DNA of 64,000 nt. Source: Pocillopora damicornis. Taxonomy: Eukaryota. Location: positions 1-64,000 of the forward strand of contig NW_020844153.1 of assembly GCF_003704095.1 (NCBI RefSeq), given 5' to 3'. Both the position numbers and the translations under genes were made by a program. This document shows positions 1 through 34,056 of this stretch, one piece after another (position 1 is the stretch's first letter; every line of letters starts with the position of its first letter). The notes under the pieces are model-generated. The model made no database searches. It had not been told where the DNA came from and saw only the letters and a program-made list of their open reading frames with translations.

Positions 1-1473
1 AATGAATTTTAATGAGTCCACAAATAAACAAATTTGACAAACCTGCGCTGCCTCGTCCCCAGAGAGCAAAGCCATCCATTTCCAGAAACTGTCGGTGATG
101 TTTGTCAATGGCTGAAAGATTGTCGAGACGAACAAGCGGATATTGTCCAACCTAACCACCATATTATCCCAGACTCGAACGAGATATGTCCCAGTTAGAT
201 GAAAAGGATGAGCAAACATCGACCAGTAAGAGTGACCGGACGGAAAGATACTTACATAGGTAAAAGTAAAAGCAAAAAAAATGACAGCAATAATTATCAC
301 CGTCATTTTTGCATCGCAACGTCCGCTCAAACGTAGAATGATCCTGCCGTGGTCGCTGCAAACGGCAAACACATAATCGAGGAGTCTTTTGACCTCTCTC
401 ACACCTCTGGAGACCTTGCCACAGATAACTCTCGTGCCATGTTTAATCCAAAGCATCACTATTATTGCTATGCCGCACAAAGAACACAGTTGCCAAAAAC
501 TTCTCCAGTCGATTCTCAAATTTAAGGCCCAGTCTGAGAAAGATGAAACGACAGTAACCACGCCACGTAACGTAGTGGAACTAAGGCAACATAGGATAGG
601 TTTAATCGGTTCCGGGAATAGGTTCCAGATGAAACAGAGAACCCACTCAAAAATAACCCACACCTTCACCAAAGTAATACTTGCACCACTCACAACAGCG
701 AAATATCCATAAAATACGCAGAAATAACATAGTAAGTGAAATACGAACTGTACTGTCAGAATAATCACGAAAATGGCGAAAATTTTTATCGCGGCAACCG
801 CGGCGCAATCAGCCGAAGAACATCCCCTCAAGCTATCCACCCTGTCATGAATCCTTTTTGTTTGGCTACGGATGATGGTAAATAAAAAAGCAAATAGCGT
901 CTTGGGCTGTTCAACCACATTGAAATCGTTGTCGCCGAGGAAGACCAACACAAAAATAACCCACATGTCCTCCAAAATCATATAAACGCTGCTCAATATT
1001 AGCGCAAAACAACCACATAACACGCAGAAATAACAAAGTAGTTGAAATACGCCCTGAACTATCAGGATGATCATGAACACTATGGCGACTGTTTTTATCG
1101 GTTCAAGCACCACGTAACCAACCGAAAAATGTCCCCTCAAGCGATCAATTCTATCGAAAATCATCCTTTTCTGGTTACAGATGATGGTACATAAGGAATC
1201 AAAGAGCTTCTTGAGCTGTTCAAGCACATCGGAAACCCTTTCGCCGAATGCGACCCACACGATAATAACCAACGCATTCACCAAAATCATATACACGCTA
1301 CTCACTATTAGCGCGAAATATCCACAAAACAAGCAGAAAAAACATAGTGTATGAAATACGCACTGAACTGTCAGGATGATCATGAACAATATGGCCAAAG
1401 TTTTTATCGTCACAACTGCGGTGTAATCAGCCGAGAGATTTCCGCTCAAACGATCCATTCTGTCGTAAATCAT
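1..1473 (-). CDS. Multi-transmembrane tandem-repeat protein, 5' part (>=491 aa, runs off window start); paralogue of the N-terminus of the TM-WWE-PARP gene at 3961-6986
   Basis: Manual scan found no stop codon in this minus frame from the ATG at 1473 to base 1, so the ORF track omits it. Translation begins MIYDRMDRLSGNLSADYTAVVTIKTLAILFMIILTVQCVFHTLCFFCLFCGYFALIVSSVYMILVNALVIIVWVAFG. It has three 309-bp (103-aa) hydrophobic repeats, then DWALNLRIDWRSFWQL and YLVRVWDNMVVRLDNIR, matching 5637-6699. Confidence 0.75.
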   Translation of the reverse strand, partial: MIYDRMDRLSGNLSADYTAVVTIKTLAILFMIILTVQCVFHTLCFFCLFCGYFALIVSSVYMILVNALVIIVWVAFGERVSDVLEQLKKLFDSLCTIICNQKRMIFDRIDRLRGHFSVGYVVLEPIKTVAIVFMIILIVQGVFQLLCYFCVLCGCFALILSSVYMILEDMWVIFVLVFLGDNDFNVVEQPKTLFAFLFTIIRSQTKRIHDRVDSLRGCSSADCAAVAAIKIFAIFVIILTVQFVFHLLCYFCVFYGYFAVVSGASITLVKVWVIFEWVLCFIWNLFPEPIKPILCCLSSTTLRGVVTVVSSFSDWALNLRIDWRSFWQLCSLCGIAIIVMLWIKHGTRVICGKVSRGVREVKRLLDYVFAVCSDHGRIILRLSGRCDAKMTVIIIAVIFFAFTFTYVSIFPSGHSYWSMFAHPFHLTGTYLVRVWDNMVVRLDNIRLFVSTIFQPLTNITDSFWKWMALLSGDEAAQVCQICLFVDSLKFI

Positions 1474-1503
1474 CTTCGTTTGGCTACGGTTGATGGTACA
1501 TAA
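640..1503 (-). repeat. Three in-frame 309-bp coding tandem repeats
   Basis: The anchor tgatggta recurs at 873, 1182 and 1491 (period 309); the translated units align (DRxDRL..IKT.AI.FMIILTVQ.VF..LCYFC..CGYFA). Confidence 0.85.
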
Positions 1504-1592
1504 AATCTCCTTTTCCGTTGCGAAAGGTCGTTAGTAGTATTGTAACATCTATGAAGCTCGCAATTCTACAGCTGGGAAGGGAGGTGTTTAAC

Positions 1593-3263: not shown

Positions 3264-3264
<1 letters not shown>

Positions 3265-3730: not shown

Positions 3731-4550
3731 TTTAAAGTATTTACAAAACCACACCGTTTTTCCTTTCTCAACTTTTTTGAAAGTAGCCTACAGTTTCTTA
3801 TCTGATTATCAAATCCTTCTCGCAACCAGACAGTTTTATGGGTACATATGTACATCATAACCATAACAAGTTGCACGTGGTAAATGGTAGAAGCCACCCA
3901 CGCTTTCCTAAAAGAATAGATTTTCATGAAACAAAGATTTTTATGAACAATGAAAAAGTAAAGGATTAAACATGACTTTTGGGGGTCAATGTTTTTGCAA
4001 TCGAGTGTAGTCTCAGAAAAGTTTATCGAGCCCATCGTAAATTGAGTGGTTGAGAAGCAAGGTTTCGGATTGGAAGTTATTGCTCTCTGTGAATTGAATC
4101 TTTTCAGATGCAAACAAACAGTTCAATACTGGAAGATATATTCTGGGTAGAACTGATCAATGTCAAAGACAATAAACATAGTTGGCTTCAATGCGTCATC
4201 CACACAGGAGTCATAATAAAGGATACCAGCTCCATTCAAAGGTTGCTTGTGGGGTGGTCTTCGATAGTTGGGGTTTCCCTTTACATACGAACCCACGAGG
4301 ACTTTGGCCACGAACATAAATCGAGACCTATTGGCATCTTCTTTTGCTTAGTTGTGGCTGTAGGATACTTTCACCGCAAAGTAGCTTCCTTGACCATACA
4401 AAGTAACGGTCGCAGTGCCACTTAGCCGCCAATCAAAGTTCTCTTTACAGATAGCCTCTACGGAATCTGAACTGGTTCCATGGAAAAGGCTTTTCTCGTT
4501 GACCCTCTGTTGATCACCGTTTGCTAGTTGTGTCATGTAGTCTTTTTTCC

Positions 4551-4650
4551 NNNNNNNNNNNNNNNNNNNNNNNNNNNNNNNNNNNNNNNNNNNNNNNNNN
4601 NNNNNNNNNNNNNNNNNNNNNNNNNNNNNNNNNNNNNNNNNNNNNNNNNN
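4551..4650. other. Assembly gap (100 N)
   Basis: Run of n. Confidence 1.
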
Positions 4651-5639
4651 TCAATCATTATAATCTGTGAACAAGACATCTTACCTTTTAAAGACGGTCA
4701 TTTCTTCAGGTGATATAAGTCTTTCTGGTCTTCGTTTCACCTTTCTTTTGGTACCGTATTGCATGTTTACTTGGTGCATGCCTTTCTCTGAATGAAAGAC
4801 CAAGTAGTACTCATGAGCTTTGACTTTGAAATTGAACGTATAGTCTGTCTCATTTCGCTTCAGCCCTTTAACGAAAGCTTGCTCTATCAGTTCTTGTAGA
4901 TTTCTTCCCTTAAAAACAAAATGTGAGTCGATATTAATGCGGATCGACTAACACTGTCGAGTAAGATGTAGTTAGTTCTCTTAAGGAAATGACATCTCAT
5001 TTGTTGATTTTATAGAATTCTAGTGGGTGCCATAATGCGATATTTTTAATAGAGTTTTTCAAAGTGCTCAAACAGGCAGCCATCATGCAATACTACTCGA
5101 ATTTATCTTTAATCGGTTTTACAGGAATTATGATTTAAACTTCAGATACATTTGAGAGATATTTCATAAGGGAGAAATACCAAATACTTTGTATCTTTTA
5201 AGAAGAGTTTTGCGATTACGATAGCTTGTAAAATACGAAGTGAAATCAGAAAGTAACGTCTAGCGATGAGGAGGACGATGAAAGGAAACAATATAAAGCC
5301 TGACATATGAATGTTCTGGGCTCTCTAAGATTTCAAACACAGTCTAAAGATACACTATAAAAGAACAGTTTACCAAGTGGTCCTTCTCGTACATACACCA
5401 AACGCCGCCATTATCTTCCCAGTACCATTTCCAGTTGGTGGAGAGAGTGTGACTTGGGTTTGTGGAGCAAGGTGGAGTGGCAAAGCACCTTAATTTTCCA
5501 GAGCCATAGCCTGCGGCGCAAATTCCTGCCGTTGGTTTTATTGACAAGGTCATGCTGTTAACGTCGATTGAGACTTCACATTCCCATGGTGGCAGAGTCT
5601 TTCCATCCGGCACTACGAAGTATCATAAAGTTAAATTCA

Positions 5640-5975
5640 CAAAATAACAACCATATTCTCCCGGACGCTAACAAGAACGACTAAAAACAACTCAAGCAGG
5701 TAATACGAAACATTCAGGCCATATGAAGCGAGCAAAGCCAACCATTCCAAGAATCTGTGGGCGATACTGTTCAATGCCTCAAATAGTTTTGGGATGAACA
5801 TGCGGAGATTGTCCAAAATAACAATCATACTTTTCCAGACACTAAAAAGAACGACTGAGAACAATTCAAGCAGGTAACATAAAACAGTCAGGCCGTATGA
5901 AGCGAGCAAAGCCATCCATTCTAAGAAACTGTGGACGATACTGTTCAATGCCTCGAAGACCTTCGAGATAAACCA
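5640..5975 (-). repeat. Two in-frame 174-bp (58-aa) hydrophobic repeats
   Basis: caagcagg at 5693 and 5867; the unit FEALNSI.H.FLEW.ALLASYGL.V..YLLELF.VVL.SV is repeated. Confidence 0.85.
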
Positions 5976-7084
5976 GCAGACATTCTCCATTATAACACAG
6001 ATATTATCCGAGAGTTTAATACTGGTTAATGCCCCAAAGTTCATCGAGACGTATACGCGGAGATTGTCCATAGTAAGGACCATATTCTTCCAGACGCTAA
6101 CGAGATATGTCTCAGTTAAATGAAGAAGATGTGTAAACATCGACAAAACAGAGTGTCGTGAAGGAAAGACGCTCGCATTTGTAACAGTAAAAGTCAACAA
6201 AATGGCAACAATTAATATCGCCATCATTTTTGCGTTACAAAGTCCGCTCAAACGATCCATTTTTCGAATCATGATCCAAGTTTCGGTACTGCATACGGCA
6301 AAACTGGAATCGAAGTGTCTCTTGGCCTCTTTCACACCTATGTAGACATTACTACAGATAAATCTCGTGGCATGTTTGCCCCAAAGCATCACCATTTTCA
6401 TTATGCCGCACAAAAAAAAAAAGTTGCCTAAAACTTCTCCTGTCGATTCTTAAATTTAAGGCCCAATCTAAGAAAGATATAATTAGGTAACGCAGAAAAG
6501 TAAACACGCCATTTAAAGCGAAAACCATAATGGGCTTTAAGCAATATATGGCAACTGTTATCGACCCCACAAAGATTTTCGAGATGCAATGGAAGACATA
6601 CTTAGAGGTAACCCACACGTTCATCAAAATCATATCTGCGCCTTTCACTATTACCACAAACGCAAAACATATGAGGGAACTCAAATATCCACATAACAAC
6701 CAGAAATGAGATTGTAAATAAAAAATATCGTCTCGACTGCCACTATAATCATGAACAGTATGACAGCAATTTTTATCACCGCAACTGCTGCGTTACCAAC
6801 CGAAGAATGTTGGCTCAAGCGATTCATCTTAACGTAAATGTTCCTTGCTTCGATCCAGATGATGGTACATAACGAATCAAATAGCCTCTTGGCCTGTTCA
6901 ATTGCATTTGAAACCTTGCCACGCAAGGCATTCTGTTCAACACTTCCGCAGTGTCTTTTCGAGTTGTGGTTGTATATACCAGACATTTTATATCTAAGAA
7001 TTTCGCTCAATACCAACAGCAGGATCGCATATCTTCTAAATTTCGTTTTCCGTTTCGAACGTTCCTCGTAAGTTGTAAAAGCTA

Positions 7085-8235
7085 AGCTAAGCCGGAAGTG
7101 GCGATTGCGTGATCTTTGACGAGGTGAGGTTAAAAATTTCTGTTTCGTATCATTAAATTGTGTCAAAATTCAAAATTCGAAATTTCTAGTAGAATAATAC
7201 AGGCCGGAAGTGGCTATTGTGTGATTTTTCACAAGGGTGACTCGTTCTCCTGAAAAATCACGCAATTCAGTTTCGTTTCAATAAAATGTGCCAGTAGAGA
7301 GAAATAACGGCACGGACGTATGTTTGAAACAGGAAGTTTATTTATGTTTTCCTTCACGTTTTTCACTGTTCATTTGCTTGAGATCTTAAATGATATTTTC
7401 TCTTGAGTTCTTTGGATTTTTTCTGCTTGCAGCGTTGAAACAAGGAATATTGAAATGACTGGCTGAGCGCAATGTGCACCGAAAGCAGTTGTCATCGACT
7501 TTCGGTCTCTGTCAGCGGTAAAAAAAGCTATTTTCCTTTTGGAAGGATCATATGACTAGGATGTTTGATGGCTAGCGAAGAATGCTGTTCAAAATTTAAA
7601 CTGACCCTAAAAAAATGTTTTAACCAGATTTTTCTCGTTACTATTTGTGACCAGTCTTGCTCTGCTTCCTGTCATTCAAATGTACAGTGAGGAACAGAGA
7701 AGTGAGCTACAATTGCATTTTGAAATTAGATTCAGTGCGCGTCTTTCAAACACAATACTTGGCACGTGCGTATTAGACAAAACAAACTGTGAATGACAAT
7801 ATATGATAATGTCATCTGAATTCAATTGAGTCTGATTATTTCTAAAAATAGGGAATTACTCTGCGCTATCGATGGAAGAAAAAAGTGAAAATTATTTTTT
7901 GGGCGGCTTAGGGCCAGTCTTTTATTTTGAAACCAAAACTGTGTTGGAAATAGTAAAAAGAGTTATTTTGCGACGCAAGGACAGGAAAAAAGGTATAAAT
8001 TTAAAATAAGTTTTAGTTCCCTGGAGTAGATATTTCTTCCTTGTTATTTCATTATATATTTTTTCAGCCGTAAAACAATCGAAGTTATCTCCTTCCCTCC
8101 CGAATAAAACAAAAATACGATGAAAGAAAAAAAAGAAAGAAAGTTGTATCCCCACCCTAGTCCTGTTAGGAAAGTGTTGTCGTTTTCTCGGAATTCTCGC
8201 CCTCGATTCCATGAAGTTTTCGTTTCAATGCCAAT
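7085..8235. promoter_or_regulatory. Divergent promoter region between the TM-PARP pseudogene and PARP12-like gene A, with ETS-, ISRE/IRF- and GAS-like motifs
   Basis: ccggaagtg at 7092 and 7204 (local ~112-bp duplication); cagtttcgtttca 7268-7280; aaaagtgaaa 7881-7890; ttctcggaa 8185-8193; agttttcgtttca 8215-8227. Confidence 0.5.
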
Positions 8236-11200
8236 ATGGCGGATGATGTTTTGGTTGAGAAAGTTTTCAATTTTATTTGCGGTAGTGGCGGATTTGTGGA
8301 GTTACCTCTACTTTTGAAGGATTCATCGCCTTTGAAAAACATAAAATCTAACTTGGAAGCGAAGAACTGGCTGACAAATCATGGCCGTGGCCGCTTTGTT
8401 GAGGTGAAAGATATAAATGATGAAGTCATAGGTGTTCGCGTTGAGCTGAAAAAGAAAATTTGTCAACAATATCTTGCACGGGGTTCATGCAGGAGAGCGA
8501 AGGGTTCGTGTAAATTCTGGCACATTTGTAAAAGCTTTATCGAGGGAAAGTGCGAAGGAGACTGCCGTCGTTCGCACGATTTTCTCGACAACGACAACGA
8601 AGCGAAGACCAAAGACCTAAATATCGAGAAGCACCCGAATGGCACACAACGGAACATCATTGCCTGGAGTCTACCACAGGTTTGTCAGTTGTATTTGAGA
8701 GATGAATGTAAATCGGAAAAATGTCCATATCTTCATATTTGCCCGAATGTAGTGCGACAATTGCCATGCAGTTGTAGTTTATCGCATAATTTGACTGAAC
8801 TTAACAACAAGAAAATACTGAAGCAGTATGACCTTGTGCCACATCAGTCGATGAAAACTGCTTTTGTTTGTAGCAGTATTTTAATCATGAACGAGCAGAG
8901 GTATTTTGGCAAAGGTAAATTCACAAGTGATGATACAACCGTTAAAAAGGCCTCACTTAAAAATAACGCAAACGAAAACAGCTCACAGCTTGGGGCAAGC
9001 CAAGAGCCGAACTCGAGTGGAACAAAAGGTTTTCATGTGAGCTCAAAATGCAAAGAGTTTCTTAATGATGATATGGAGGCGAGTTCGAAGAAGAATGAAC
9101 CGAAACCCGGTCACTCGAAGGCAAAGAAAGAGCAAAAACAGAAGCGTATACCGAAATACGTCAACAATTTGGCGAGTTGTGCAGATGCTTCAGCAAGATC
9201 TCAGAAAAATCCCGGGTTTCTAAATATACACGAAGAGGAAGAAGAAGGCCACTCGAACTCATCTTCAGAAGACAACAAACCCTATTCTAAAAGTTTCCTC
9301 TCTGCTAATCAAGGTGAATCGATTCATCAGATTCCAGAGTCGAAAATAAGTCACGAAAAGACTGGTAACGAAGTCAAATTTCGTCATCCTAAACTCGTGT
9401 CAAATAAGAAACCTGAAGCGGATCCGTGTACCTCAAATGGCGCAGCCAAAGGTGGTGTTGTTGATGATGACCCGCCTGTTTTGCCCGTTGATGATATCGG
9501 AAACGATTTTGTGAAGAATTGGGTCCTGGGTGTTGATGATTTTTCCTCTGAGTCCAGTCAAAGCCTTGGAAACTCTCAAATTGAAGAAAAACCAGCGGAA
9601 CGCAAGCGAAAGTCATCCATATCAAGTTCATGCAGCTCTGTTCCGAATCCACAAAAGAATACACCCTCTAAGAAGGCTGTCTTTGACTGCATTCTGAAAG
9701 AATACAATGGTACTGTCTCCTTTCTTGATATCTCGAAAAGAAAAGACTTGTTTCCTGAAGGATGTGGAGATATTGCAGCGTGGTTTATAGCAAGGAAAGA
9801 AAGCTTTCTGCTTAGGGAAAGTAAAGACGGAACACTGAAAGTGGACGTTCTTTGTAAACGAGCAAAATTATGTTTTAACCAGGATCATTGCTCCAAAGTG
9901 GGTTGCCCTTATCTACACGTGTGCCGAGATTACATCGCTGGTTTTTGTAGATTTGGCGGTAGATGCCAAAGAAACCATAGTTTTGAATACGATGAAAGCA
10001 GAATGCACATTTCTAAACTTAAATTATCTGGGTTTAGCGAAGAACAGCTGCGTAAACTCGTTCAGCTGTCAATACCCCAAGTATGTCTGGACTATAATGA
10101 AGGACACTGTGTACTCGGAGAGAGTTGTTGGCAAATGCATATTTGCAAGGATATGATAAAGAAGAAGTGTTCAGATGGAGTCATTTGCAGTCTCAAGCAT
10201 GAAGAAGCATTGTTGACGGCTCAAGCAAACACTGTGCTAAGTAGATATGGCCTGAAAGTCTGGGATGACAACGTTCAACCGATTTTGCGAACCCTTCTCA
10301 TCTGCGAGAGGAAATCTTCAGTTGACTCTACACCCCTTTTAAAAGACACTGTTTTAACAGCAGCTAGTCTGACATCGTCGAGCAGTGCAGTGGGCAGCCG
10401 AAAAGAGAAAAACCCGAGTGGTGCCATTCCTTATTCACTTGCATCCGTTTCTGTAGCCAGAACACCCAGCACTGTTTCAACGCCAAGTGGTTCGAGGACG
10501 TCAGAGGGAGCAGCTGGCGGCACAAAAGTGAGCGATCAGAATAGTAGTCCAATTCCTTTTACAGGTGCCGTTGTGAACAACAGTGAAGCATCCGAACGAA
10601 AAGTCTTTGAGTGCTTGTGCAAAGAATACAACTGCTCAGTTTCGTTTTCAGTGATTTCTAAACGCACTGATTTGTTCACTACCGGATTCAAAGACGTGGA
10701 GTCTTGGTTTCGAAGAAGAAATGGGAGCTTTTTGATCTTAGAAAACCCGGATGGGGCAATTACAGAAGTAAGTGCCTTTTCCGCAAAGGTTCGACTCTGC
10801 TTCAGTTACAACGCCCCCTATGGAACTTGTACAAAAGACAACTGCTCATTCCTGCACGTCTGCAGAGATTATATCACTGACTCCTGCGCCAACGGAGCAA
10901 CATGCCCACGGAACCATCAATTCCGCAACGAGAAGGATAAGGCTTTGCTGTCTAAGATCAACCTCGACAAGTTCACAGACGAGCAACTTCGCCGGCTTGT
11001 GCTGTTTTCGTCACCACTGATTTGCGTAGAGTACAACGATGGTATTTGTGATCGTGGCGATGCTTGTCCTAGAATTCACATGTGTGGCAACCACTTGAAA
11101 AAGTGCTCCCGAGAAAGACATGGTTGTATCTTAGAGCATGAATCCGCCATGACCACTGACCACACCAAAGCAGTTCTCGAGCGTTATCGTATGGACTACT

Positions 11201-14200
11201 TAAAACCAGGCGCAGCAAAGAAGGCTATTTTGCTTTTTGACGACTTGGCACAAAGTAGAGAAGCAGGTATGTTTCACTAAGAAAGCATACTGGTTTCAGA
11301 TTGTGCTCATGTATCCAGCAATATTTGTGATAAAGTATAGGTACAAAATTAAAATTGCTTTGATTTTATTCGGGAAGCTTTTTTTTTAATTTTATTTTTA
11401 TTTTATTTTATAAACTAGGGTTTTAAAACTAATGTCTTTGGTCATAATTGGACAATACAAAGGTGTTTTGTTAGGATTAATCGATGATTCTGTGGCACTA
11501 TCAGTCCCTAAATATGCTCAATTTCGTTTGCTCTCCCTATAGAGGTAAATGAAAAGTGATCCTTTTTTTTCCAAGGATAACGAAAAACGTGTCTTTCTCC
11601 CTCAGTCACACTGCTGTTTTTATCGTCGTCAGGTCATGTTCACACTGATCAACCAGATGCATATATCTGTTCAGATTTCCTTCTGGGAAAGTGTAAAAAG
11701 GGCATCAAGTGTTCTGAGCACCACTGCTCGTTGCCTTACCACTGGCAATACAGAGTCGAGAATAAAGGAGTCTGGAAGAGTTTTAGTGAGACTGACAATG
11801 AGAAGGTGGAGAAACTTTACTGTGACGCAATGATGAATGATTGCTCAGCCAATGGCTTCAAGCTGTCTTTCAAAAGGTAAGCCAAGGAGAGTCGTGTTTG
11901 AATACAGAGTATTTTGCAGAGGCAAACATAAATTGTTTATACAAGCTCAAGTCTAAAATTATGGGTTTACAAGCTCACTTCTTTGTAACCTCGATATTCC
12001 CTTATTCGTTGCTATCTGTTCTGGTAAATTGTGTTGTAATAATTTCTCATGATTAATTTATATGTATGGTTCTTTTTGAACCTCATTTATTCACAAGACC
12101 TTTGTAGACAAGCCCCTCAAGTTTAGATTACGATTGATGATCTGGTTTAGATCATCTTTCAGAAAGTGTTCTATTCTTGATGCAAATTCCTTATTAAAAG
12201 AAGCCCGCAATGAGGAATTTAACTTGATAAATAATGTACCCAAAATTTCATGATACTGAATTGGCACACAGATCGTAGTTAACTTAAAAATCGATTTTTT
12301 TAAGTCATGGATTCCCTCTCTTGGATGAAGAGTATACCGTGCAGTTCCTGTTTGAAAATGAGCTGATGCTTGTGCAGACAGATTTTGAAGTCGTCGCAGA
12401 CATTAGGCGGCTGTCCACAGAACCCTTCATCAATAATCCCGTTAATCCTTTGGCTGCTGTGTGGACTTGGTACTGGAAGGACGAAAATGGCATGTGGCTC
12501 GCGTATGGCTCAGACTACCTGGTAAGATTTTATGTGAGGTGCCATTTCTGGGTAATTGTTACAAACATGTTTTAAAGAAGAAATAACAAGTAAAGGTAGT
12601 AATTAGCCATGCTTTTTAAGCCTCATGTTATGTTAGGAAACTGTTAAGTCATGGACGTGTTAATAAGCAAACGTTATTTTGTTCAAGTCATTTGAAAAAA
12701 AAAATGAAAACAGTTAAACAAGCAGTAAACACAATCAGAAATCAGTAGATTAATTCATTGGAAATTTTTGTATATTTTCAGGGGAATGATCTTCAGCGAC
12801 CCATAGAAGAGGCATTCTTATCCACCCCATACTGCTATAAGTTTAAAATTGCCGAGCAAGACTATGTACTGCATTTCCTTAAAATGGAACAAGAAAACTT
12901 GAGGTATGGCACTAAACGACAAGTAAGGAGAAGACCTGGAGAATTTAGATCAGGCGCAGACATCCTGGAGATTCGAAGGTAATTTCAAGTGACAGTCAAA
13001 ACTTTCCGCAACGGCCACTTCTGAGGCAAAGAAATTTAGAAAGGGTGCAACACAGCACATTTTTTGTAAGAAGGGTCGAACTACATTTCTGAAGTTGTTA
13101 ACATGTTTATTTCAGCATATTAATACGTAACACACTCAAAGTAATGTACTGAAAAGAAAGGAAACATTAAACACCAAAGGATTGAAGCACACTGTTTTAT
13201 CATATTTTAAATACTTACTGCATGAAGAGAGCGATATGACCTTTCGGGGAGTAAGCCATGTTGCCCTGGTCAGGTGAGGGGTCAAACCTAGAGCTATCAA
13301 TCTGGAGAATGTGGCAAAGCCAGGAACGCCAGGATATTGGAATATCTCGGAGCACTAGACTGTATCGAAACAGTCGCAGCTTGACTTAACAAAATGCTCT
13401 TTCTGGCAAAACGGAGTGCAAAATGGTGCGATAGTAGTGGTGGAACTCCCCAAAAAACTAGGGAAGTTTGGGTCAGGTTACAGATAACTTTAAAATTTTG
13501 GTGGGTACATTAATTGCGCTTGAGTGTTTTTTTTTTTTTATGTCTGTCTTGCTTAAGTATAAGTATTTTCAATTTTTTTCGCCCAAGGTCATCCAGGAAG
13601 GGAAAACCGATTACAAATGTATCAAATACTGAAAGGCCTAGCAACTGGGCTTCTATGCCATCTACTAAGCAGTACACACGTGTCACGTTAAGCACTGTAT
13701 CATCTGAGTACAAAGAAGTGGAGAGGTTATTTAAAAGTTCAATCAAAAAAAGGGTCGTTATCCGTAGAATCCAGCGTGTGCAAAACTCTTTCATGTGGGG
13801 AAAGTATCAAAGGTATTATTTATTTATTTATATATATGTAGGAAATCTTTGTTTCGATTTTTCCGTCTTACAGTGCTCGATACATAAAAATAGAGCGTGA
13901 TATGTACTGTGTTAGGGGGAAAAAACAAGGAGACTACGCTTTCATCCCGAAAAGCCTGTTTAGTTATTAAAATCTCTCTTCAGGGGATTTTAAAATCCCC
14001 TGAAAAGTGATTTGAGTCAAAATCAACTTTTTGTGCTATATTATTTCAACGTTTTCGTAAATAATAGAAAAACTATTCACCTCAGTGTTGGTGGATTGTT
14101 TGAAACATTCTTATGTTGAAACATACTCTATTCTTCCGTGGAAATGGTCGTAATTGGGTATACGTAAAACGCTCTTTACCTGAAGCCTTGTTTTTGTTTG

Positions 14201-15018
14201 TTTTTGAAAGGAAAAAGGAATATTTGTTGACGATCAAGACAGGCGGTCACAAGTTTTCCCCCTTGAACGAAAAGAGGTTGTTCCACGGAACCAGCCCCGA
14301 TGCTGTAGAGGCCATTTGTAAACAAAACTTTGACTGGCGCTTAAACGGAAAGAACGCCACTGTTTATGGTGAAGGAAGTTATTTCGCTGTAAATGCCTCT
14401 TACAGCGATGCTTATGCAAAGAAAGACGCAAATTCGTCTCAATTCATATTCTTAGTCAAAGTCCTTGTTGGAACTTACACCAAAGGCGACTCCAGCTATC
14501 GAAGACCGCCTCCAAAACAACCATCCAATCCTTCGAGTGACCTGTACGACTCTTGTGTGGACGACGAGTACAATCCAACCATATTTGTGGTGTTTGACAC
14601 CGATCAGTTCTATCCAGAGTACATCATTGAGTATTCTGATGAAAGTAGAAGGTATTCCGGAGCTCACGGAGCTGGCCCTCAGACAGGAGCGTATGCAGTA
14701 CCTTCTTATAGCCGAGCTGCCCCATCTACCAGCTCCTTTAATCCCACAAGTGGTTATTACTCATCTAGTAGTGTGGCATCGAGTAGTTATGGCTCAGCCT
14801 CTAACAGCTCGTCTAGTACACCGTACCGCAGCACAGGTACAAGCTACTATTCAGGTACGGCGAGCTCTCATAATACAACATATTCATCGCACATCTCAAG
14901 CACAGGAACATCAAGAAATTATTCTTCATCAACGAATACTTCTAATGTGTCACACCACAGTTCAACTCCTAGCAGCTCCTCGAAATCTTCCAAAGACAAC
15001 AAGTGCTTGGTAATGTGA
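8236..15018 (+). CDS. PARP12: PARP12/ZAP(ZC3HAV1)-like protein A, ~1573 aa: 3x(HTH+4 CCCH) - CCCH - WWE-WWE - mono-ART (H-Y-I) - Ser-rich tail - CaaX
   Basis: Exons 8236-11266, 11633-11876, 12305-12521, 12782-12978, 13588-13812, 14211-15018; all introns GT-AG, phases 1,2,0,2,2, total 4722 nt in frame. Motifs: CCCH fingers, LPYHWQY, WTWYWKDENGMW, LFHGT, NFDWR, YGEGSYFA, YDSCVD, TIFVVF, QFYPEY; ends KCLVM*. Confidence 0.9.
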
Positions 15019-20431: not shown

Positions 20432-23340
20432 ATGGAGTACGATAATGTGGTCCACAAAGTGTTTAACTTTGTCTACGATTCTGGCGGTTTCGCCGAATTG
20501 GATTAAATTTTTTAGAGCATCCGTCACCATTAGCATTTAAAGGGACAGAGGGAAGAGTGATAAGATGGTTGAAGAGGCAAGTGGTCTTGCAGTTGTAAAA
20601 GATCGCAATGGTGAAACTGCTGGTGCGCATACTGATCTAAGGAAGAAAATGTGCCAGGAGTATGTAATCAAAGGGTCATGTACAAGAGGGCAAGAAAGGT
20701 GTAAGTTTTGGCATCTCTGCAAAAGTTTTATTGACGGAAATTGTGACGGAGACTGTAAATGCTCATTCAATTTTTTGTACAAGGTTAGCAAGAAAAACAC
20801 AGAAAAGTTCAACCTCGAAAAGAGAACAAATGACGCGATAAAAAGCGTGGTAGCCTGGAGTCTTCCTCAGGTTTACTTGTTGTATTTAAGAACAGATTGT
20901 AAATCAAATAAGTGCCCATATCTTCACATCTGCCCCAAGGCAATTCGAGAGTCGCCTTGTAAATAAGCCACGTCACATAATGTGACCGATTTTCATAATG
21001 TACTAGTCCTCAGACAGTACGATCTGAAACCGCATAAGGGGATGAGTATCGATTTTTTCCGCTGCAGTATTTTAGTCCTAAAAGAACAAAAGCGTATCAA
21101 GGGGTGCAAATACTCAAGTGTTGCTCCCATTAAAAAGGGAAGCGGTAGTCATGCCCAAATTTCAATCGTCACGGCATCACCTCCAAGTGTAGCGGGCGCA
21201 CGTTGCTCAGGTAACGCGACTGCAAAGAGTTCGCCAAGTGACTCTTTGACTGGCGCTCAACGAAGTAACACTAAAAATGCAACAAAATGGTCGAAAAGAA
21301 AAACAAAGCAGTAAACAACCTAAAAAAGTGTCACATCACTTGGTAAAATCATCCGTTCCACTTGTTAACAACCTGGCCAAACATTCCCGTTCAATGCTGA
21401 ATAATAGGTCCCTCAATTTTCTATACATTCCATCTGAAGACAAGGTTGAATTGCCGATGGATTCGACATCAGATGAAAATGTCAATACCAGGATGTGTCC
21501 AAACCCAATCAAGTACACCGATAAACCAAACACTCCACCCAGCGATCACAATAATCTTCCAAAGTCTTCACAAAAATCCACCAACCATTCTCCAACCATT
21601 GACGCAAACTTGGAAGATAAAAACAAAGTCGAAAACATTTTTGAAGCTGGTTCCAACGCAGATGAAAAACCATCAAGTAGCAAAAGTTGCCAGGTGAGAT
21701 ACCTTGGTAGCATTTCCAGCTCACGTATTGCTGTCACCCACTTCGAACCATCAGAGTTAAAGGTTTTCGAGTGTCTGTGCAAAGAGTACCTCTAATCGGC
21801 CCCTTTTTCTATCATTTGTAAATGGACGGATCTCTACCCTCCCGAGCATTCTGATATCGAGCTGTGGTTTCGTGAGAACAAAGGAAGTTTTTCGATAAAG
21901 GAAGATGATTAGGGAATGATTTCAGAAGTTTAAGCCTTCTCTTCAAGGGCATGTATCTGTCATGGTTATACCTGCAATGTAACTTGTTCGAATGAAAGCT
22001 GCTCGTACATGCACGTTTGCAAAGATTACGTCACTGATTCGTGTTCCAATGGGGCAACTTGTCACTGGAATCACAGCTTTCACAACGGAAAAGACCGGGT
22101 ATGGCTGTCGAGAATTAAGCTAGATCAGTTTATTGAGGAAGAGCTTCGTTGGCTCGTGTTGACATCGACACCACAGATTTGCGCAGAGTACAACAATGGA
22201 ATTTGTCAGGATGGGTCCTCGTGCACCAGAATCCATACGTGCATCGCCTACTTACTGAGGCGCTGTAAAGCATCTGGCTGCGGTCTTAGCCATGAAGAGA
22301 CCATGAGGAGTGAGCACAATAGGGCAGTGCTTGACTGGTATCAGGTGACCGATTTGGATTCAGGCTATCTCGACCAGCTCATTCTGATGAATGAAGAACC
22401 GGTTAAAAAAGGCGACACAGCTAATTCAAAAGTGCGAATTTGCAATTCAGTTTTTCCTCACGACTCAAGGGATTCCCACACGGTTGCTGCAAGTCCCTAA
22501 GCCCAAAGCCAAATTATCACAAGCAGTGCTGTCCCAGTCTCAAATATTTTCAAGAGCAGCACCCTGGATGCTGAAGAAATCCAACCGCCACTGTGGTCAC
22601 GGGTCCAGGTATCCTTTGTCTCACTTTTACAGACGAGGCAAGGTTACCAGCAGCCACTTTTCCTTCAATGAAGTTCTAACCGTCAACAAATCTTCCAGAA
22701 CAAAAAGTGCAAGGGAACTCTTGGCCAGGGAAAGGTTTTTCAAGTCCCCATGTATCAGAACCGTGCACCTCTGTTAAGGGGGGAAATGATTCATAGAGAG
22801 ATGGCCAAAGACCCTGTGATACAAGTTCGGTTGTCTCATAAAAAATTATCACGGAAGGCTCCCTGTTATCAAAACTCTTTGTTTCATGGGCAGCTGTTCA
22901 AAACGAGAGAGTTACCACCAACGCTCCTTCAGGCAGATATCCCCCATATCATTGCAGCTGAGTTGCAGTCACGGAGAGACTCTGTTACTCGTGACAAGTC
23001 AGGGTGTTCAACCAAGTTTAACGGGGAAAGCGATCATTCTGATGAACTAACTACACAAGGAAGAACCTGGAGCTCATCTTGGCTGTCAATAACCCGTAAT
23101 GACGATGATGCATTCACACAGTCCAGTTATTAAGCGAGGACTATGACTGCCATAAATATACCCATTTGTGCAGATCGTGCGTTTAGCTCTTCAAGCCGTT
23201 CAACTTTCACCAACCACTTATTAGTCTTGAAGGCGCATGTTCCAAGCTGTTCCTGTCCAAGAAAATTTTCCCCGGGAAAGATGAAAATTATAACAGCCAT
23301 CATCATATCTATGATCATCTGTATGATTACAATCATTTGA
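20432..23340 (+). pseudogene. Decayed ZAP-like CCCH gene (two HTH+4xCCCH modules, no WWE/PARP exons seen), possible C-terminal TM
   Basis: Starts MEYDNVVHKVFNFVYDSGGFAELD* at 20432. Fragments KKMCQEY..GSC.RG...CKFWHLCKSFI and SELKVFECLCKEY..MHVCKDYVTDSCSNGATC align with modules 1 and 3 of gene A, with multiple stops and frameshifts. Confidence 0.85.
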
Positions 23341-26918: not shown

Positions 26919-29900
26919 TCAACAGACCACCTTAGATTTGGTCTTGAACTTTATCAAGAAAGTCGGGTAATACTGATCCGAGGCAAACAGCACAAAAATG
27001 GTGGGCTTGGTGACGTTATCCACACAAGAGTCATAACGCTGTTTCTTGGCTTCGGAGTCACTCCTTAACGGTGGTCGTGGTAAGGTTGGCTCACCTTTGG
27101 CATATGACCCCACAAGAACCTCGCACAAAAACATGTACCGGAAGGACTCGGAGTCTTGCCTGCAGTAGAGATTACTCAAGGCCGCCTCCTCTGTGAAGTA
27201 GGCTCCTTTACCGAACTGGGCAGCTCGGTCCTCTTCTAGAGCACGACAGTCGATGTTCTCCTCACATATCGTGTCTACAACTTGGGGATCAACTCCGTGG
27301 AAGAGAAGTTTTTCATTCATAGGATTGTCTTTGACCGAGGCCTTCTTCTCCATCCATTCTTTCTTACTAAGAGGAACAGCACAAAATTTCAGCTTCATTA
27401 TTGGGAATGAAATTTCAACCTAAATTCTGTTTTGATTTGAAGTGAGTGAATTGCAAGTTTTAGCAATAATTTTTTTCTTATTGCCGTTATAATTGCGTTG
27501 TTGAAGTTTTTATTTTAACCAGAGTTCAGTTCTTGTTTCGTTTACCTTAAGGTAATTTTCTTAAACAATAAGCCAAGAGGCCAGAACTGATTAAAAGACG
27601 CAGGCAGCAGTATTCACGAGATGTATGACTTTATGCGTAAAGTAGTCAACTGCTTAACCCAATTCATCTCTGGCTGCGGGCTAGACATTTCCTACTTTCC
27701 TAGTTCACTACAAATGTATGTGTCAAATGCAACCTCAGTGACTTCAAAGTCTGTTGGGATTCATCAAGAGCAAGAGTTACACTGGTGCGTATGACTGTAA
27801 TACCTAGAAAAAACCTCGAAGAGGATTAACTACCAAAAGAAGAAATAACACGTTCAATACATACTCTGCATACTTCTTCCACAAAAACGGATTTTGAACT
27901 CGCTCAACGGAGATGATAGTTGCCTTGTTTTCGGACATGGTTTGGCGAAACAGGCTTTCGGCACATTTGAATTCATCTGAGTTGCTAGTCAGAGGAACAC
28001 GCATGAACTCTCGGTCTTCAGGAACACGTTCCCAGTGAGAAGGAGTGTGACCATGTGATGAAGCTGAGGTAGACTGCCCTGGTGTTGCGGGTTGCAATGG
28101 GATTGGTAGTTCAAGGGGACTGAAGAATATAAAAAAAAACACGAAGTTCGCTTAACCTTATAGTGCTTTTCCTCGCGAATTAAAGCTCATACTGTTCATT
28201 TGATTTTTTCAGTTCCTGGCCTTCTTTAGAAAAGTGATAATGATAATGACATAAAATAAACTCGTGTTTGTACAGAGTCTCAAAGCAGATACAACAAAAG
28301 CTAGCTTACAACATATACCCATACAATATTCGTTTGACTACGATGTATACACTCTAGATACCAGTAAACAAAAACTCAAACAGCAAAGTAAAAATCTCAC
28401 TGGAGAAACGAAAACACTAATATACATTTATACATACAAGAAAACAAAAGAAATAAACAAACAGAACACCACCCGAAGTGTTCGGCCTACCCAAGTGCGC
28501 TTACTGTGATTGGTCAAAATAACAATCACCCCACCAATTTGATGCATGCAAAAACAAAAATATATTCCTCGTCAACACGCGTTTCCCACGTGTTTCTACC
28601 TCATGACTTTCTGTATTGTAAAATAAGCCTTGCGCATAAGTTGCCTTCGTTGTTGCTACGAGCGCATTTTACGTTTTAAATGACCCCCTGAGATGGACGA
28701 TAGGGTCATCATGCCACAAAATAACCTTGTAGAAATCAAGGTGACTGGATCTAACATATCTTTAGAGGTAAGCATTCACAGTGTTAGTTTTTACCTCTGC
28801 AGCCTCTCTATTTCCGACTTAGACCTAAACAAAGGCCTTCTTCTCACTTTTGTAACTTTAATGGGTGGTTTCAAGTTCTGCTGGTACATGGATGTTTTGT
28901 GAAAAAACAACTTATGGTCCTCTCCTCCTCTTTTAAATTTATGGAATGATCTTCCTTTGGTGAACGACTCTTCTATTCGCTTCTGTTTGGAGACATCATG
29001 GCACGAAAAAAAGGAAAATAGAAAAAAATAAGCCTTCAGAAGATACCACCGCCGAAATGAGGAAGTGAACTCCCCTTTTTTCCCGAAATAACGACAAACA
29101 TAAAACTTCGGTATCTAAGAATCAATAAATTATAATAAAACCTGCCATTGCATGGAAAAGAAGGGGACATTTCCTGAATATGGAAAATGCTCGAAGCTCG
29201 TTAATAAATACAAAAACATTAAATAAACAACAATATCAAAGAAAAGTTATGCTCACAATAAATTTGTCCCTAAAATGGATGACAAAAGCAAAAAAATAAA
29301 AAAAAAATTATGCATATATATAAATATATACATATACATATAAATATACATACATATAGGCTGCGGTTACTTTAGGGCAGTTTCAGAACCAAAACTGTCT
29401 CCAGATGTGGATATTTATATCATCTTACTTGCAGAGCTTCATAAATCACTCACCAAATTCTCCAAAAATGTTTTTTTTACTTTTCAGACCTAAGATAAAA
29501 TTTGATTTGCTCATTGGCCTAAAAGAATGCAGTGAATTGTCAAGCAACTCTCAGATGAGAAGAGAGGACCCCTTTTCTGTTACCAAGCCAATGATAGTCT
29601 GTGTTCTTGATATTAATTTTTTTTTCCTCTGTTTTTACCCAAAAGAGTAGGAATGATCAGCAATTATCTTACAGACATACCATAAGCTCAGAATCATACT
29701 CAGTCCAACTGCTGTCCTGATCTGACAGGTACCAAACCCATGTAGTCAATAGAGAATGATCTGTAAGCGAGCTCACTGACTTAGTGGACAGACGTCTCAG
29801 CTCCACAGATCCAAATCCTGTCACAGCTTTCATTTCATCAAAGTTGATCTTGATGTAACCTTCTCCAGGATCAATACTGCAGCAACAAAAGGGAAAGTTA

Positions 29901-32900
29901 ACTATCACACAGAAGTGAAACCAAACATTATGATTATCAATCATATTTAGATCAGCGTTAACTTATAATATAAAGATCTTTCCAAGCTTAAAACTGGAGC
30001 TTCAGTTAGTTAATTTAACAGCCCTTCCTTCATCAAAACTCCTCACTGTCGGTTGCAGAGTGTATTCTGGGAAATCAGTCATAAGTTATGAAGAGAGGGT
30101 GGGTATACCAGGGATAAGGGCTGGCTACCCTTCTTTATTTAACAAAATAAATATATTCTTCGGGTTCACTAGACAAGAAAAGTGATTAAAGCTGTAATTT
30201 CCTATTGGTGAAACAAGTTGTACTTACAGTGCAGTTGGAGGAGGTGCAACTTGAATGTGTCCAATTTCTGTCTCTGTAACATCAACAGTGCAGAACTGTC
30301 TCTCAATGTCTTCACTATCATTTTCGGTGAATGCCTTCCATCCATCTGCTTGCTCATTGTCAAGGTATCTATACTGCCACATGTATGGCATGTTGTGATG
30401 AAAGTACTCACACAATTGAGCCTTGCCACAATGACCCAATAGGAATTCCAGGCAGATGTACTGGGGGCTATGGAAGTTTTGCACCTCTGTCTTTGGATTC
30501 ATCACTTGTTTCTTTTGAGGTTGTGCAGCTACAGAATTAACAAAGAGATTGTTCAGTAATAAATTTAGAACTGAATTTTCATTTATGTTCTTAGAGGCCT
30601 GTGTATGAACAGGGTTAATTATTAAATATATAAAATAAAATCAAGAATACCAAACATTCCCAAACCGCTGGAATCAGAGTCATTAGAATCCTGCCATGAA
30701 CAAATACATGGTAAAGGATGATTTTGGGCGTTAGATGATGAAATCTCATCAATTTCTTTGCTAAAAGTATGGTTATTTCATAAGATTTGATGTCTCTGAC
30801 ATTTGTCTAACATCATAGTACAGTATCATCTCATTTCTTTGACACAATGATTTGCATCTGTAAAATAGATACATGCAAGTGAACAAGCTCAATAAAAAAA
30901 GATCCATAAACAACCCCATGCTTACAAATTGAGTTAGAAATGACCATGGCCAGGTTCAAAACACAAATGACAAAATTTCTTGGTCAGATGTGTACAGATA
31001 ATGAGATAGTGTATGTAACCATAAAAAACTAACTTGGGTAATGGTACTTCAAGCAATTTCCAGTGCAGCCCAGTACCAAAGGTACAATACTGATTACACT
31101 TCTTACCAGCTTCTTGTTCCTCTTTGGTTTCCATGGTCAATGGTTGCCTCTGTCCACGCACCAGAATGGCTCGAAAGACAGCTTGCACTGGAACAGTGGT
31201 CAAATTGTACTTCTCTAGAACTAACCGGGTATGGGGTTCTTTGAGACTTGCCTCATGGTTAAGAGGGCAGTTGGCTCCATTTTTGCAATTGCCCATTACA
31301 TAATGCTTGCAGACATGAATTGCATAGCAACGTAGACCTCTCCTGCATCTAGAAGATTTCTTGTTGTAATCAAGACAAACTTCAGGAACAGAGGCAGAAA
31401 TCAGGACACGTAGCTGCTCATCTGAGAAACAGCCAAGCTTCCGCCTTTTAGTGATGTTTTTGTTGTGAGGGCTCTTCAGATTATGGCTATGGCTGTATCT
31501 ACATTTCTTCCCTAACGGACAGGCACCATTAGCAAGATAATGCTTGCAGACATGGTAACGGAAACACTTTGGATCCTTACAGCCATTTTTGCCCATCAAG
31601 TAGCGAAAACAGATGCGTGCTTTAGGGGTGCATGCTCTTACTGATTCAATTCCCCCTTCACTGTTCTCAATGATCATAAACCTGCTTGAGTTTTCCCTGA
31701 ACCATGCAGCAATATCAATAGCATCTAGAGGAAACAGGTTGTAGCATTGGGATATTACAGCAAAAGGCACTTCACCATTGTGTTCTTTACAAATGTATTG
31801 AAAAACAGAGTTTACAGCTTCTTTTTCCAATTGGCTTTCTGCACTGTGCTGTTCAGATGGGTCAAAAGAGGTACTGTCCTGAGACAGTGCTCCTGCAACA
31901 TTTGTTGGGGACAGGTTGAAGAGCAAATCATCCACTTGAGAAAGTGGCTCAAAAGTTGAGAAGTCATCCTGTGAACCAAATGTATCTTCAAGATCTTGAA
32001 ATCCATCTTCTAACTCATCAGAAAAATTGATCAAGTTTCCTTCAGCAACTTCACTTATGCCCATTCCAGAAACCTGGTTCTGGTAAGTCATCCCACTGTT
32101 GGATTGTGTTTGCTTCCTCAGACCTTGAACAGATGTATTCCCTGATGTGTCTACATGCTTTGTGCTTGGACTAGGCTGATTGGAAAATTTTGAAACTGAG
32201 TAAAGATCAGGTTTGTCTGGCAAATCTTCATTATCTGAGGTTGAATCTGAACCTTCCTCTTCAACATCATCTGCAAGTGATTCTTCACATGGTTCACCTG
32301 CTTGATTTGCCTTTTTCTTCTGTCTTCGTCGTTGCCTTCTCCTCTTCTTCAGCCTCTCATCTGGACACCTTTTCACTTGTGAATCCAGATTGTTATCATC
32401 TTTTAGGGCTACAGGCAAGGACATCAAAGATGCTGGCTGTGATGTTAAAGAAGAACATGCTGAGGAAAGCTTGGCTTCTGTGGGACCTTTTTGCCTCTTT
32501 GGGAACAAGATGTTGCTCTGCATTATGATTATTTTGGTTCTCTGAGGGTCTAAATCATATTGCTTTAGAATTGAGGAATTATGGTCATCATTTAAAGCGT
32601 GTGTCAAGTTACAACTGCACGAGTTTTCTCCAAAAGCAAGGGGGCATAAATGTAAATGTCGGCAGTCATTACTGTAGTTGCATCTACTATTCACATATGG
32701 GAGACAAATTCGGGGAAAACTGTGTGAAATTATGTTCTTTAAAGTTCCATTTGGGCAACGCTCAATCCCCAATCTCTGTATCTTCTTTATGTTACCCTCA
32801 TCATGGAAGTCATGTGAGAGACCACAGCCTCCCTGACAAGTATCCTCAAGGTAACCTTTGCAGATATGCCAATACTGACAAGTGTTGAGAGATTTACAAT

Positions 32901-34056
32901 AACCTTTCATATACTGCAAACATAATTTTTTCCTTGAATTTACTCGAACACCGAGAATATCACCATTTTGGTTCTCTAGCAAAATGATTTTCTGTCCCTG
33001 TTCTGGGTGAGTGTTTACTTGAAGCCAAATCTTTGCATCAACCTCAGACTTTGAAAACTTCCCTACCAATGGCGAGGGTGGTTGTAATAGGTCCCGCAAT
33101 GAAGAGTACCCTCCTTTACTACATATGAAATTAAAAACTTTCATAAACAGAGGATCAGCATCAGGAGGTGCAGTGTCATGATGCATTTCTGGTTTGGCTT
33201 GAGCAGGTGCTTTTGGTTCAGGTTTAGAGAAGTTTTGGCATAAACGCGCCAGACTAACAGCTCCAGGTTTACCCTGATGTGAGGGGTGCCTCTGTGTAAT
33301 ATTATCAGGCTTATTAACTCTTGGCGTGGGTTGCCTGCTGAAGCTTGGATCATTGATAGCCCTTCCTTCAAAAGATTTCTGCTGCTTCGGGATCAGAATG
33401 TTACAACGAACGACATCCATGTCTGACGTTCGGGGAGGCCTGAACCCATACTGTTTCAGCAAGCTTCTGTTGTGCGGACTAGTGAAATCGTGATACCGAC
33501 TACATCCACAGGCTGTTGCCCGCACCGCATTAACACAAATATGAAGATACGGACAATTTACAGAGAGGCAACCATTTTTTGAATACATAAGACAAACCTG
33601 CAGAAAGCTTCCGGCGACAATAGTTTTCAAAGGCCCAGTCGCTTTTCCTTCAAAACCCAATTCCACCGTTTTCGCTTTGTTGTCTTCATCGTGAAAATCA
33701 TGTGATCGGCCACAGTTTCCTTTACAAGTTCCCTCAAGGAACTCCCTACATAAGTGCCAGAATTTACATCTACTTCCTGATTTACAAGACTCTTCGGTGG
33801 AGTACTTTAAACACATTTGTTTGGCCAAGTCGATTCGCACGCCGACAGCTTCATCACGTTGATTTCTTACCAAAACCAATCTGTTGTTTGGGTCCAAATC
33901 TTTCTGAGTTTGAAACCATAAAATCAGCTCAGTCTCAGTAGATTTCTTTGCCAAAGGCGAGGGATTTTTAAGTAAATGCGATAGTTCTAAAACTCCGCCA
34001 CTTCCACTGATGAAATTGAATACTTTTACAACTGAGACATCGCTCGATACTGCCAT
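26919..34056 (-). CDS. PARP12: PARP12/ZAP-like protein B, ~1445 aa: 3x(HTH+4 CCCH) - CCCH - WWE-WWE - mono-ART (H-Y-I)
   Basis: Exons 34056-31107, 30528-30228, 29876-29681, 28982-28795, 28119-27865, 27366-26919; GT-AG, the same phases (1,2,0,2,2) as gene A, 4338 nt in frame. Motifs MPYMWQY, TTWVWY, LFHGV, FGKGAYF, YDSCVD, TIFVLF, QYYP. Confidence 0.9.

What the first reader, a model, noticed from the sequence alone, without database searches (positions are those of the whole stretch)
1..34056. One ZAP/PARP scaffold, several candidate membrane anchors
Seen across the array: CaaX (gene A), polytopic TM repeats with a relic CaaX (left pair), a possible tail anchor (20432 copy) and a polybasic tail with terminal Cys (gene B, KFKTKSKVVC*). 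The neighbours STEEP1, MPEG1 and TMEM163 are also endomembrane-associated in mammals. Inference: paralogues diversified by subcellular address, for example ER, endosome or symbiont-containing vacuole.
Basis: inference. Interest (0 to 1): 0.7.

Follow-up and report, generated by a model that had tools for sequence, protein, structure and literature searches.

The report
Two membrane anchors in coral PARP12s
A coral cluster of genes related to the antiviral protein ZAP shows two credible ways to attach to membranes, a fat-tag signal at the tail that also turns up in many invertebrates and a membrane-spanning front end that replaces the RNA-binding part, while two other proposed anchors look like chance.

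Summary
Stony-coral tandem array of PARP12/ZAP-like genes. Two anchors hold, one relic is plausible, two fail. (1) Gene A is intact, spliced in three RNA studies and ends CLVM; CaaX boxes also end PARP12-like proteins of other corals, a hydrozoan, molluscs, a hemichordate, amphioxus and salmonids, which conflicts with a published gain of the box in tetrapods. (2) The hydrophobic exon of the left pair belongs to a coral TM-WWE-WWE-ART subfamily, spliced in relatives; these proteins have no zinc fingers and no CaaX (0 of 11), so the scaffold is not one. In the window no intact TM-PARP is shown: L2 is a broken, partly deleted allele, its TM-to-WWE splice was not seen, and L1 runs off the edge. 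L2's catalytic exons come from the zinc-finger/CaaX clade, which makes the relic CLIL plausible. (3) The 20432 copy is a pseudogene fragment; its 'tail anchor' is an unlinked ORF. (4) Gene B's tail starts inside the catalytic fold and is no prenylation motif. The neighbour argument and the symbiosome idea have no support. No localisation was tested.

The parts
1..1473 (-). L1: hydrophobic-repeat ORF, runs off the window; link to any WWE/ART exon not visible
   Evidence: no Pfam hit; 8 hydrophobic segments; 90% identical ORF P0001 ends 22 codons past the edge; homologous to TM-PARP first exons
3958..3972 (-). L2 candidate relic CaaX: CLIL followed by TAC, about 54 codons past the ART domain
   Evidence: read through, not terminal, in P0241/P0242
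4123..4548 (-). L2 ART exon, TAA at 4350-4348 inside the domain, TGA at 4125-4123 right after it
   Evidence: Pfam PARP in two pieces; same two pieces called on other contigs
4685..4908 (-). L2 WWE2 exon; the next exon falls in the N gap 4551-4650
   Evidence: Pfam WWE; joint 5373-4907 and loose end at 4684 in 3 RNA runs
5373..5607 (-). L2 WWE1b/WWE2a exon; RNA continues upstream into an exon absent from the window
5637..7167 (-). L2 TM-repeat exon: indels near 6720 and 6412, truncated by a deletion junction at about 5637; 717-aa open allele elsewhere (P0002)
   Evidence: same truncated end in 3 other proteins
8236..15018 (+). Gene A, 1573 aa, exons 8236-11266, 11633-11876, 12305-12521, 12782-12978, 13588-13812, 14211-15018: 12 CCCH-pattern matches, WWE-WWE, ART, 127-aa Ser/Thr-rich tail
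15004..15018 (+). Gene A CaaX box CLVM + stop
18353..19240 (+). Six-TM cation-efflux-like gene (TMEM163-like by recall), bystander
   Evidence: Pfam PF01545 E=1.5e-5, below cut-off
20432..22500 (+). Pseudogene fragment of the zinc-finger exon: frameshifts and stops, no WWE or ART exons behind it
   Evidence: early stop shared by 14 of 15 listed cluster members
23281..23340 (+). Proposed tail anchor: unlinked short hydrophobic ORF end, judged chance
   Evidence: ORF not in the protein collection
26919..34056 (-). Gene B, 1445 aa, exons 34056-31107, 30528-30228, 29876-29681, 28982-28795, 28119-27865, 27366-26919: 11 CCCH-pattern matches, WWE region, divergent ART, no evident anchor
   Evidence: all GT-AG, same phases 1,2,0,2,2 as gene A; long branch; not covered by reads
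26919..26951 (-). Gene B end KFKTKSKVVC + stop
34490..34909 (+). First two STEEP1 exons, head-to-head with gene B, bystander
   Evidence: Pfam PF25809

Best explanation
A birth-and-death tandem array of PARP12-like mono-ADP-ribosyltransferases with two real membrane-attachment designs. Type 1 (gene A): zinc-finger RNA-binding modules, WWE-WWE, ART, a long flexible tail and a CaaX box; the cysteine is most likely farnesylated (X = Met), which would put the protein on the cytosolic face of endomembranes as for ZAP-L. Type 2: at the phase-1 intron in front of the WWE exons the zinc-finger exon is replaced by a hydrophobic multi-helix exon, giving a membrane-embedded ADP-ribose reader and writer without RNA binding and without CaaX. 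L2 is most likely a decaying type-2 gene built on type-1 catalytic exons, whose CaaX became redundant and decayed. Gene B has no anchor of its own, and the 20432 copy is debris. Shown: gene structures, gene A splicing, the termini, spliced TM-WWE-ART in relatives, L2's clade. Inferred: prenylation, membrane insertion, the L2 TM-WWE splice, antiviral role.
For: Gene A: 4 of 5 junctions in the joint table of all 3 RNA runs, the fifth by contiguous coordinates in one 6187-nt contig. Cys at -4 in 75 of 120 hits, by named lineage: stony corals 7 of 21, hydrozoans 2 of 3, molluscs 12 of 14, hemichordate 2 of 2, amphioxus 4 of 6, teleosts 14 of 18. TM-WWE-ART models in Pocillopora (3 species), Stylophora, Oculina. 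P0107 residues 1-125 are 96.8% identical to DNA ORF P0005 376-500, then P0005 runs to a stop while P0107 goes on into WWE and ART: a splice. Of 34 hand-picked coral proteins, 11 have hydrophobic segments and none of these has CaaX or a CCCH match; 9 of 13 with two or more CCCH have CaaX. L2 WWE+ART group with zinc-finger/CaaX proteins (100/99), and grouping with the TM clade is rejected, p-AU 0.003. ZAP-L farnesylation and endomembrane targeting: PMC8568172 passages.
Against: No localisation or prenylation data. No listed contig bridges L2's TM exon to its WWE exons, and contig depth over the WWE exons is about twice that over the TM exon in X1 and X8 (a poor measure). No protein among the 349 held joins the L2-type LDNLR repeats to WWE or ART. 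The repeat helices have high hydrophobic moments (about 1.0-1.5) and may lie on, not across, the membrane; the structure model is low-confidence there (pLDDT about 35-60). The CaaX survey used a query carrying the tail, holds isoforms and near-duplicates, and the tails cannot be aligned. The 34 proteins are related and hand-picked, so the exclusion is not an independent-sample statistic. Gene B, intact and zinc-finger-rich, has no CaaX, so an anchor is not obligatory.
Confidence: 0.65

Rival explanations
1. One reading: four or more paralogues share one ZAP scaffold and each uses its own anchor (CaaX, polytopic TM, tail anchor, polybasic tail with terminal Cys) to reach a different compartment, such as the symbiont vacuole.
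For: All strings exist; two anchor types are real in the family; B's last 10 residues have net charge +4.
Against: 20432 copy broken and without WWE/ART; tail-anchor-like ends arise in 14 of 713 short frames; B's tail overlaps the ART strand, and relatives without CaaX also end in basic residues such as YHLK; VVC* is not CaaX, CC or CXC (recalled definitions); TM members lack the fingers.
Confidence: 0.05
2. L2 is not one gene: a TM gene and a separate zinc-finger/CaaX-type PARP were brought together by the deletion at about 5637, so the relic CLIL belongs to a gene that never had a TM exon.
For: L2's WWE and ART exons are nearest to Oculina zinc-finger proteins P0133/P0146; the deleted length is unknown; the exon upstream of 5607 is absent from the window; no bridging contig.
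Against: Full-length alleles of the TM exon end in G-K, the reading of a phase-1 donor as in spliced relatives (inferred from the peptide); the TM exon is covered by RNA contigs on the same strand directly behind the divergent promoter; a separate TM gain on a gene-A-clade ART is seen in Montipora P0129.
Confidence: 0.3
3. CaaX boxes in corals, molluscs, amphioxus, teleosts and tetrapod ZAP arose several times by extension of a disordered tail, not by inheritance from one ancestor.
For: Tails vary from about 10 to 680 residues and do not align; the last four residues differ by lineage; many paralogues lack the box; counts on an unrooted tree cannot tell gain from loss.
Against: The box is present in six of seven lineage groups counted, usually after basic residues; loss needs only one stop codon, as L2 suggests.
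Confidence: 0.25

Closest known systems
Human ZAP-L (PARP13.1)
   Same: CCCH fingers, WWE-WWE, ART domain, C-terminal CaaX (CVIS in ZAP, PMC8568172 passages; CLVM in gene A)
   Different: Gene A has about three finger modules, keeps the H and Y of the catalytic motif with Ile third (PARP12-like, motif recalled), and has a 127-aa tail; CpG-binding residues not tested; no ZAP structure matched its first module by sequence
PARP12 and cnidarian PARP12-like proteins (PMC8102003, PMC11784840; passages)
   Same: Architecture and cnidarian presence are published; ART fold nearest PARP12 for the TM-type model
   Different: Human PARP12 lacks CaaX; PMC8102003 says invertebrates typically have one copy and does not mention CaaX; here an array of at least four copies or remnants
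Tetrapod gain of the CAAX box (PMC12204182; passages)
   Same: Same motif at the same place
   Different: The paper places the gain in a tetrapod ancestor; the motif is here in cnidarian, mollusc, hemichordate, amphioxus and teleost relatives. Its supplementary table S3 was not seen
Sponge PARP12-like protein with N-terminal TM (PMC4245714; passage) and PARP16
   Same: A clade-3 PARP with an N-terminal TM is noted for Amphimedon; PARP16 has a C-terminal TM
   Different: Coral proteins have up to 8 hydrophobic segments and tandem WWE; homology to the sponge TM not tested
Rheb anchor swaps (PMC5869587; abstract)
   Same: A prenylation motif replaced by transmembrane segments in a paralogue
   Different: Unrelated family; there the TM segments replace the C-terminus, here an N-terminal exon also removes the RNA-binding module

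Membership tests
PARP12/ZAP-like CCCH-PARPs (genes A, B) | N-terminal PARP12-type CCCH fingers | tested here: met
   PF25261 above cut-off in both first exons
PARP12/ZAP-like CCCH-PARPs (genes A, B) | Finger 5 + tandem WWE + ART | tested here: met
   A: WWE twice and PARP. B: PARP strong, one WWE below cut-off, second by similarity to relatives only
ZAP proper (PARP13) | Catalytically dead ART and CpG-binding pocket | tested here: inconclusive
   A and B keep F-H-G and Y, unlike ZAP by recall; CpG pocket not aligned. Not filed as ZAP
CaaX-prenylated proteins (gene A) | C-a-a-X at the true C-terminus, free of a fold | tested here: met
CaaX-prenylated proteins (gene A) | Actual prenylation and membrane binding | not testable with these tools
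   needs labelling and imaging
Prenylated or polybasic-anchored proteins (gene B) | CaaX, CC or CXC end, or a free polybasic stretch | tested here: not met
   ends VVC*; 8-residue tail with 3 Lys
Tail-anchored proteins (20432 copy) | C-terminal TM in frame with the protein body | tested here: not met
   stops and frameshifts between
PARP12/ZAP-like CCCH-PARPs (TM type) | CCCH fingers | tested here: not met
   0 CCCH matches in 11 of 11; no finger family in Pfam for the 7 TM or signal-anchor models scanned
Coral TM-WWE-WWE-ART clade (L2) | WWE+ART in the TM clade | tested here: not met
   p-AU 0.003
Coral TM-WWE-WWE-ART architecture (L2) | TM exon spliced to WWE exons | tested here: inconclusive
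   both parts covered by RNA contigs, no bridge listed
Coral TM-WWE-WWE-ART architecture (L1) | Downstream WWE and ART exons | not testable with these tools
   outside the window; no genome held

The most novel reading that the evidence does not exclude
The prenylation signal of ZAP-L is an ancestral animal feature of PARP12-like proteins, older than the cnidarian-bilaterian split and lost in human PARP12, and stony corals have repeatedly swapped it for an N-terminal membrane exon by shuffling at one phase-1 intron, creating integral-membrane ADP-ribose readers and writers; L2 would be such a swap caught with its old CaaX still readable.
Probability: 0.35. Interest if true: 0.65.

Novelty: new variant of a known kind. 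Interest (0 to 1): 0.45.

Why it matters
Farnesylation is what makes ZAP-L the stronger antiviral isoform, and a 2025 paper treats the CaaX box as the last, tetrapod step in ZAP's origin. Its presence across invertebrate and fish relatives would turn that step into retention or repeated gain, and gives a direct test in sea anemone or coral cells. A polytopic TM-WWE-ART subfamily in reef corals was not found in the searches run and would be a new architecture for membrane-local ADP-ribosylation. The window itself holds one anchored intact gene, so the finding as worded overstates it.

Tried and rejected
No whole genome is held. A search for longer fused forms of L1 found none among 3956 candidates, and none of the 23 representatives had a PARP domain; fusions turned up only through cluster members. 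JGI metagenome scans with the TM exon and with B's last exon found no relative. The Atlas gave no hit for the TM exon and only generic PARP clusters for B. B's last exon under three starts was not in the collection, so conservation of KVVC is unknown. Reading past B's stop gives no CaaX. L2's downstream tail matched no tail among the relatives. A lenient search for WWE/ART remnants behind the 20432 copy gave a best E of 0.015, not accepted. The TM profile matched no natural solved structure; the fold search reported only ART domains. Misassembly as the sole cause of L2's damage was rejected because the truncated TM end, the ART stop and a poly-T frameshift end recur in other contigs; some of those could be the window's own sample. 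Three look-ups in earlier findings returned nothing. An earlier count gave L2's second stop as 4120-22; the right place is 4123-4125.

Full report
Setting. The window is from a stony coral: RNA holders are coral libraries and the nearest named proteins are Pocillopora and Stylophora. No whole genome is held. Positions 1-34056 hold, left to right, two hydrophobic-repeat regions on the minus strand (L1, L2), gene A, a six-TM transporter-like gene, a broken copy at 20432 and gene B.

Genes A and B. Both give open six-exon models with GT-AG introns and the same phases 1,2,0,2,2: 1573 and 1445 aa, with PARP12-type CCCH fingers, WWE and ART. Contigs of three RNA runs from three studies, laid on 4651-16050, show four of gene A's five junctions in all three runs and the fifth through contiguous coordinates of a 6187-nt contig that spans 8236-16050. 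The substitution table was cut, so the CLVM codons were not read from RNA; 15 of 15 listed members of the last-exon cluster end K[DE]NKCLVM. Gene B lay outside the stretch laid and has no RNA check.

CaaX. A search with gene A's last exon listed 120 of 209 hits; 75 have Cys at -4. By named lineage: stony corals 7 of 21, hydrozoans 2 of 3, molluscs 12 of 14, hemichordate 2 of 2, amphioxus 4 of 6, teleosts 14 of 18, amphibian and lungfish TIPARP-like 0 of 9 (birds, alligator and unnamed rows left out of this count; isoforms not collapsed; the query itself carried the tail). For comparison, 7 of 2083 stop-ended frames in the window end in C-a-a-X. Published work ties CaaX to ZAP-L of mammals and birds and notes its absence from human PARP12 (PMC8568172, passages; PMC9888277, passages), and PMC12204182 (passages) places its gain in a tetrapod ancestor; a term search of its one held supplement found nothing, so table S3 was not seen. 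PMC8102003 and PMC11784840 (passages) establish cnidarian PARP12-like genes and contain no occurrence of 'CaaX' in the main text. Searches showed no listing that reports an invertebrate CaaX in this family; the library lacks most subscription papers. Ancestry versus repeated gain is open because the tails do not align.

The hydrophobic exon. L1 has 23 relatives among 50%-cluster representatives, none with a PARP domain, because most are single-exon gene calls. Cluster look-ups and a second search gave full models: RMX47701.1, XP_058973793.1, XP_022804545.1, Oculina and P. meandrina proteins, all TM region + WWE + WWE + ART. P0107, on a 2230-nt contig, matches the DNA ORF P0005 at 96.8% over 125 residues and continues into WWE where P0005 runs to a stop; I read this as a spliced transcript. 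In 34 hand-picked coral proteins (32 relatives that looked full-length plus A and B; single-exon calls and some isoforms left out), 11 had hydrophobic segments and none of them had CaaX or a CCCH match, while 9 of 13 with two or more CCCH had CaaX. The best segments equal those of the neighbouring transporter (KD19 up to 3.0), but the 58-residue repeats are strongly amphipathic, and the model is all long helices at low confidence. A sponge PARP12-like protein with an N-terminal TM is already noted (PMC4245714, passage); searches listed nothing on the coral subfamily. Equal longest-contig lengths (62,221 and 1,328,993) for exon 2 of the P0107-type gene and for gene A ORFs suggest that a canonical TM-PARP sits in this same cluster outside the window; this is inference.

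L2 and L1 in the window. L2's TM exon carries indels near 6720 and 6412 that other runs lack, and stops at 5637 where the 717-aa allele P0002 goes on. RNA at 5607 continues into an exon that is not in the window, and run X18 has other, intron-like sequence there. Three other proteins share the truncated end. The ART exon has an internal TAA, and both halves are called as separate ORFs on other contigs; intact alleles could sit in clusters not seen. The WWE exons are still spliced in three studies. In trees, L2's ART and WWE exons fall with zinc-finger/CaaX proteins, not with the TM clade (p-AU 0.003, group named after seeing the first tree). That makes the CLIL 54 codons downstream a plausible relic: the pattern is rare (9 of 1569 windows), and two alleles read from the ART end through it in frame, though past it. 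It is not a working anchor in any of 12 alleles listed. Whether the TM exon was spliced to these exons is unproven; I put it at about two in three. L1 leaves the window, and its homologue stops 22 codons later, so it cannot be called a PARP here.

The two weak anchors. The 20432 copy matches only gene A's first exon, in three frames with stops; the first early stop is shared by 14 of 15 listed cluster members. The hydrophobic ORF end at 23281-23340 follows further stops, and 14 of 713 short frames in the window pass the same filter, one with a higher score. In gene B, KF completes the last ART strand, leaving KTKSKVVC; this is no recognised prenylation motif (recalled), and no orthologue was found to test conservation (nearest ART 48%). 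Palmitoylation of the last Cys is not excluded.

Neighbours. STEEP1 is confirmed and lies head-to-head with gene B. MACPF and cation-efflux domains fit the other two names. Adjacency says nothing on localisation, and nothing here touches the symbiont vacuole.

Verdict. Partly right: two anchor designs, mutually exclusive in the sample and coupled to loss of the RNA-binding fingers, a pattern with a precedent in Rheb (PMC5869587, abstract). The lasting points are the wide spread of the CaaX box and the coral TM-WWE-WWE-ART subfamily. New variant of a known kind, interest 0.45.

Noticed in passing
P0010 and its cluster; compare window 4830-4810 (-): Another TM-repeat ORF type begins with TFNFKVK, identical to seven residues of L2's WWE2 exon, and shares contig lengths with L2 ART pieces and gene A exon 1; it hints at more tandem TM/WWE units or a second deletion junction in other haplotypes.
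   Followed up: no
P0151 (Oculina), P0129 (Montipora), P0323 (Porites), P0137/P0140 (Acropora): The same WWE-ART body carries other first exons: tandem UEV domains, a different TM region, a single N-terminal hydrophobic stretch, or long Ser-rich repeats. The first exon looks freely exchangeable.
   Followed up: partly
window 7167-8236: L2's TM exon and gene A are head-to-head about 1.07 kb apart; gene B and STEEP1 are head-to-head about 430 bases apart (34056-34490).
   Followed up: no
window 4123-5607: L2's WWE exons are still spliced in three studies although the ART domain has a common internal stop; a WWE-only product, loosely like ZAP-S in lacking the ART domain, is possible.
   Followed up: partly
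window 15018-16050: Gene A's RNA contigs run at least 1 kb past the stop and on beyond 16049: a long 3' UTR.
   Followed up: no
window 8236-11266 and 31107-34056: Genes A and B each carry about three repeats of the zinc-finger module in one 3-kb exon; an Oculina relative has 16 CCCH matches.
   Followed up: partly
window 43362-45375 (+): Casein kinase 1-like exons (by recall of the motifs) next to an F-box gene at 42178-43050 (-).
   Followed up: no
window 46767-47687, 52013-52999, 56219-62740 (+): Two intronless GPCR-like paralogues (71% alike) and two tandem trypsin-like protease genes.
   Followed up: no
window 35511-36116 (-): Reverse-transcriptase-like remnant of a LINE element inside a STEEP1 intron (by recall of the motifs).
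   Followed up: no
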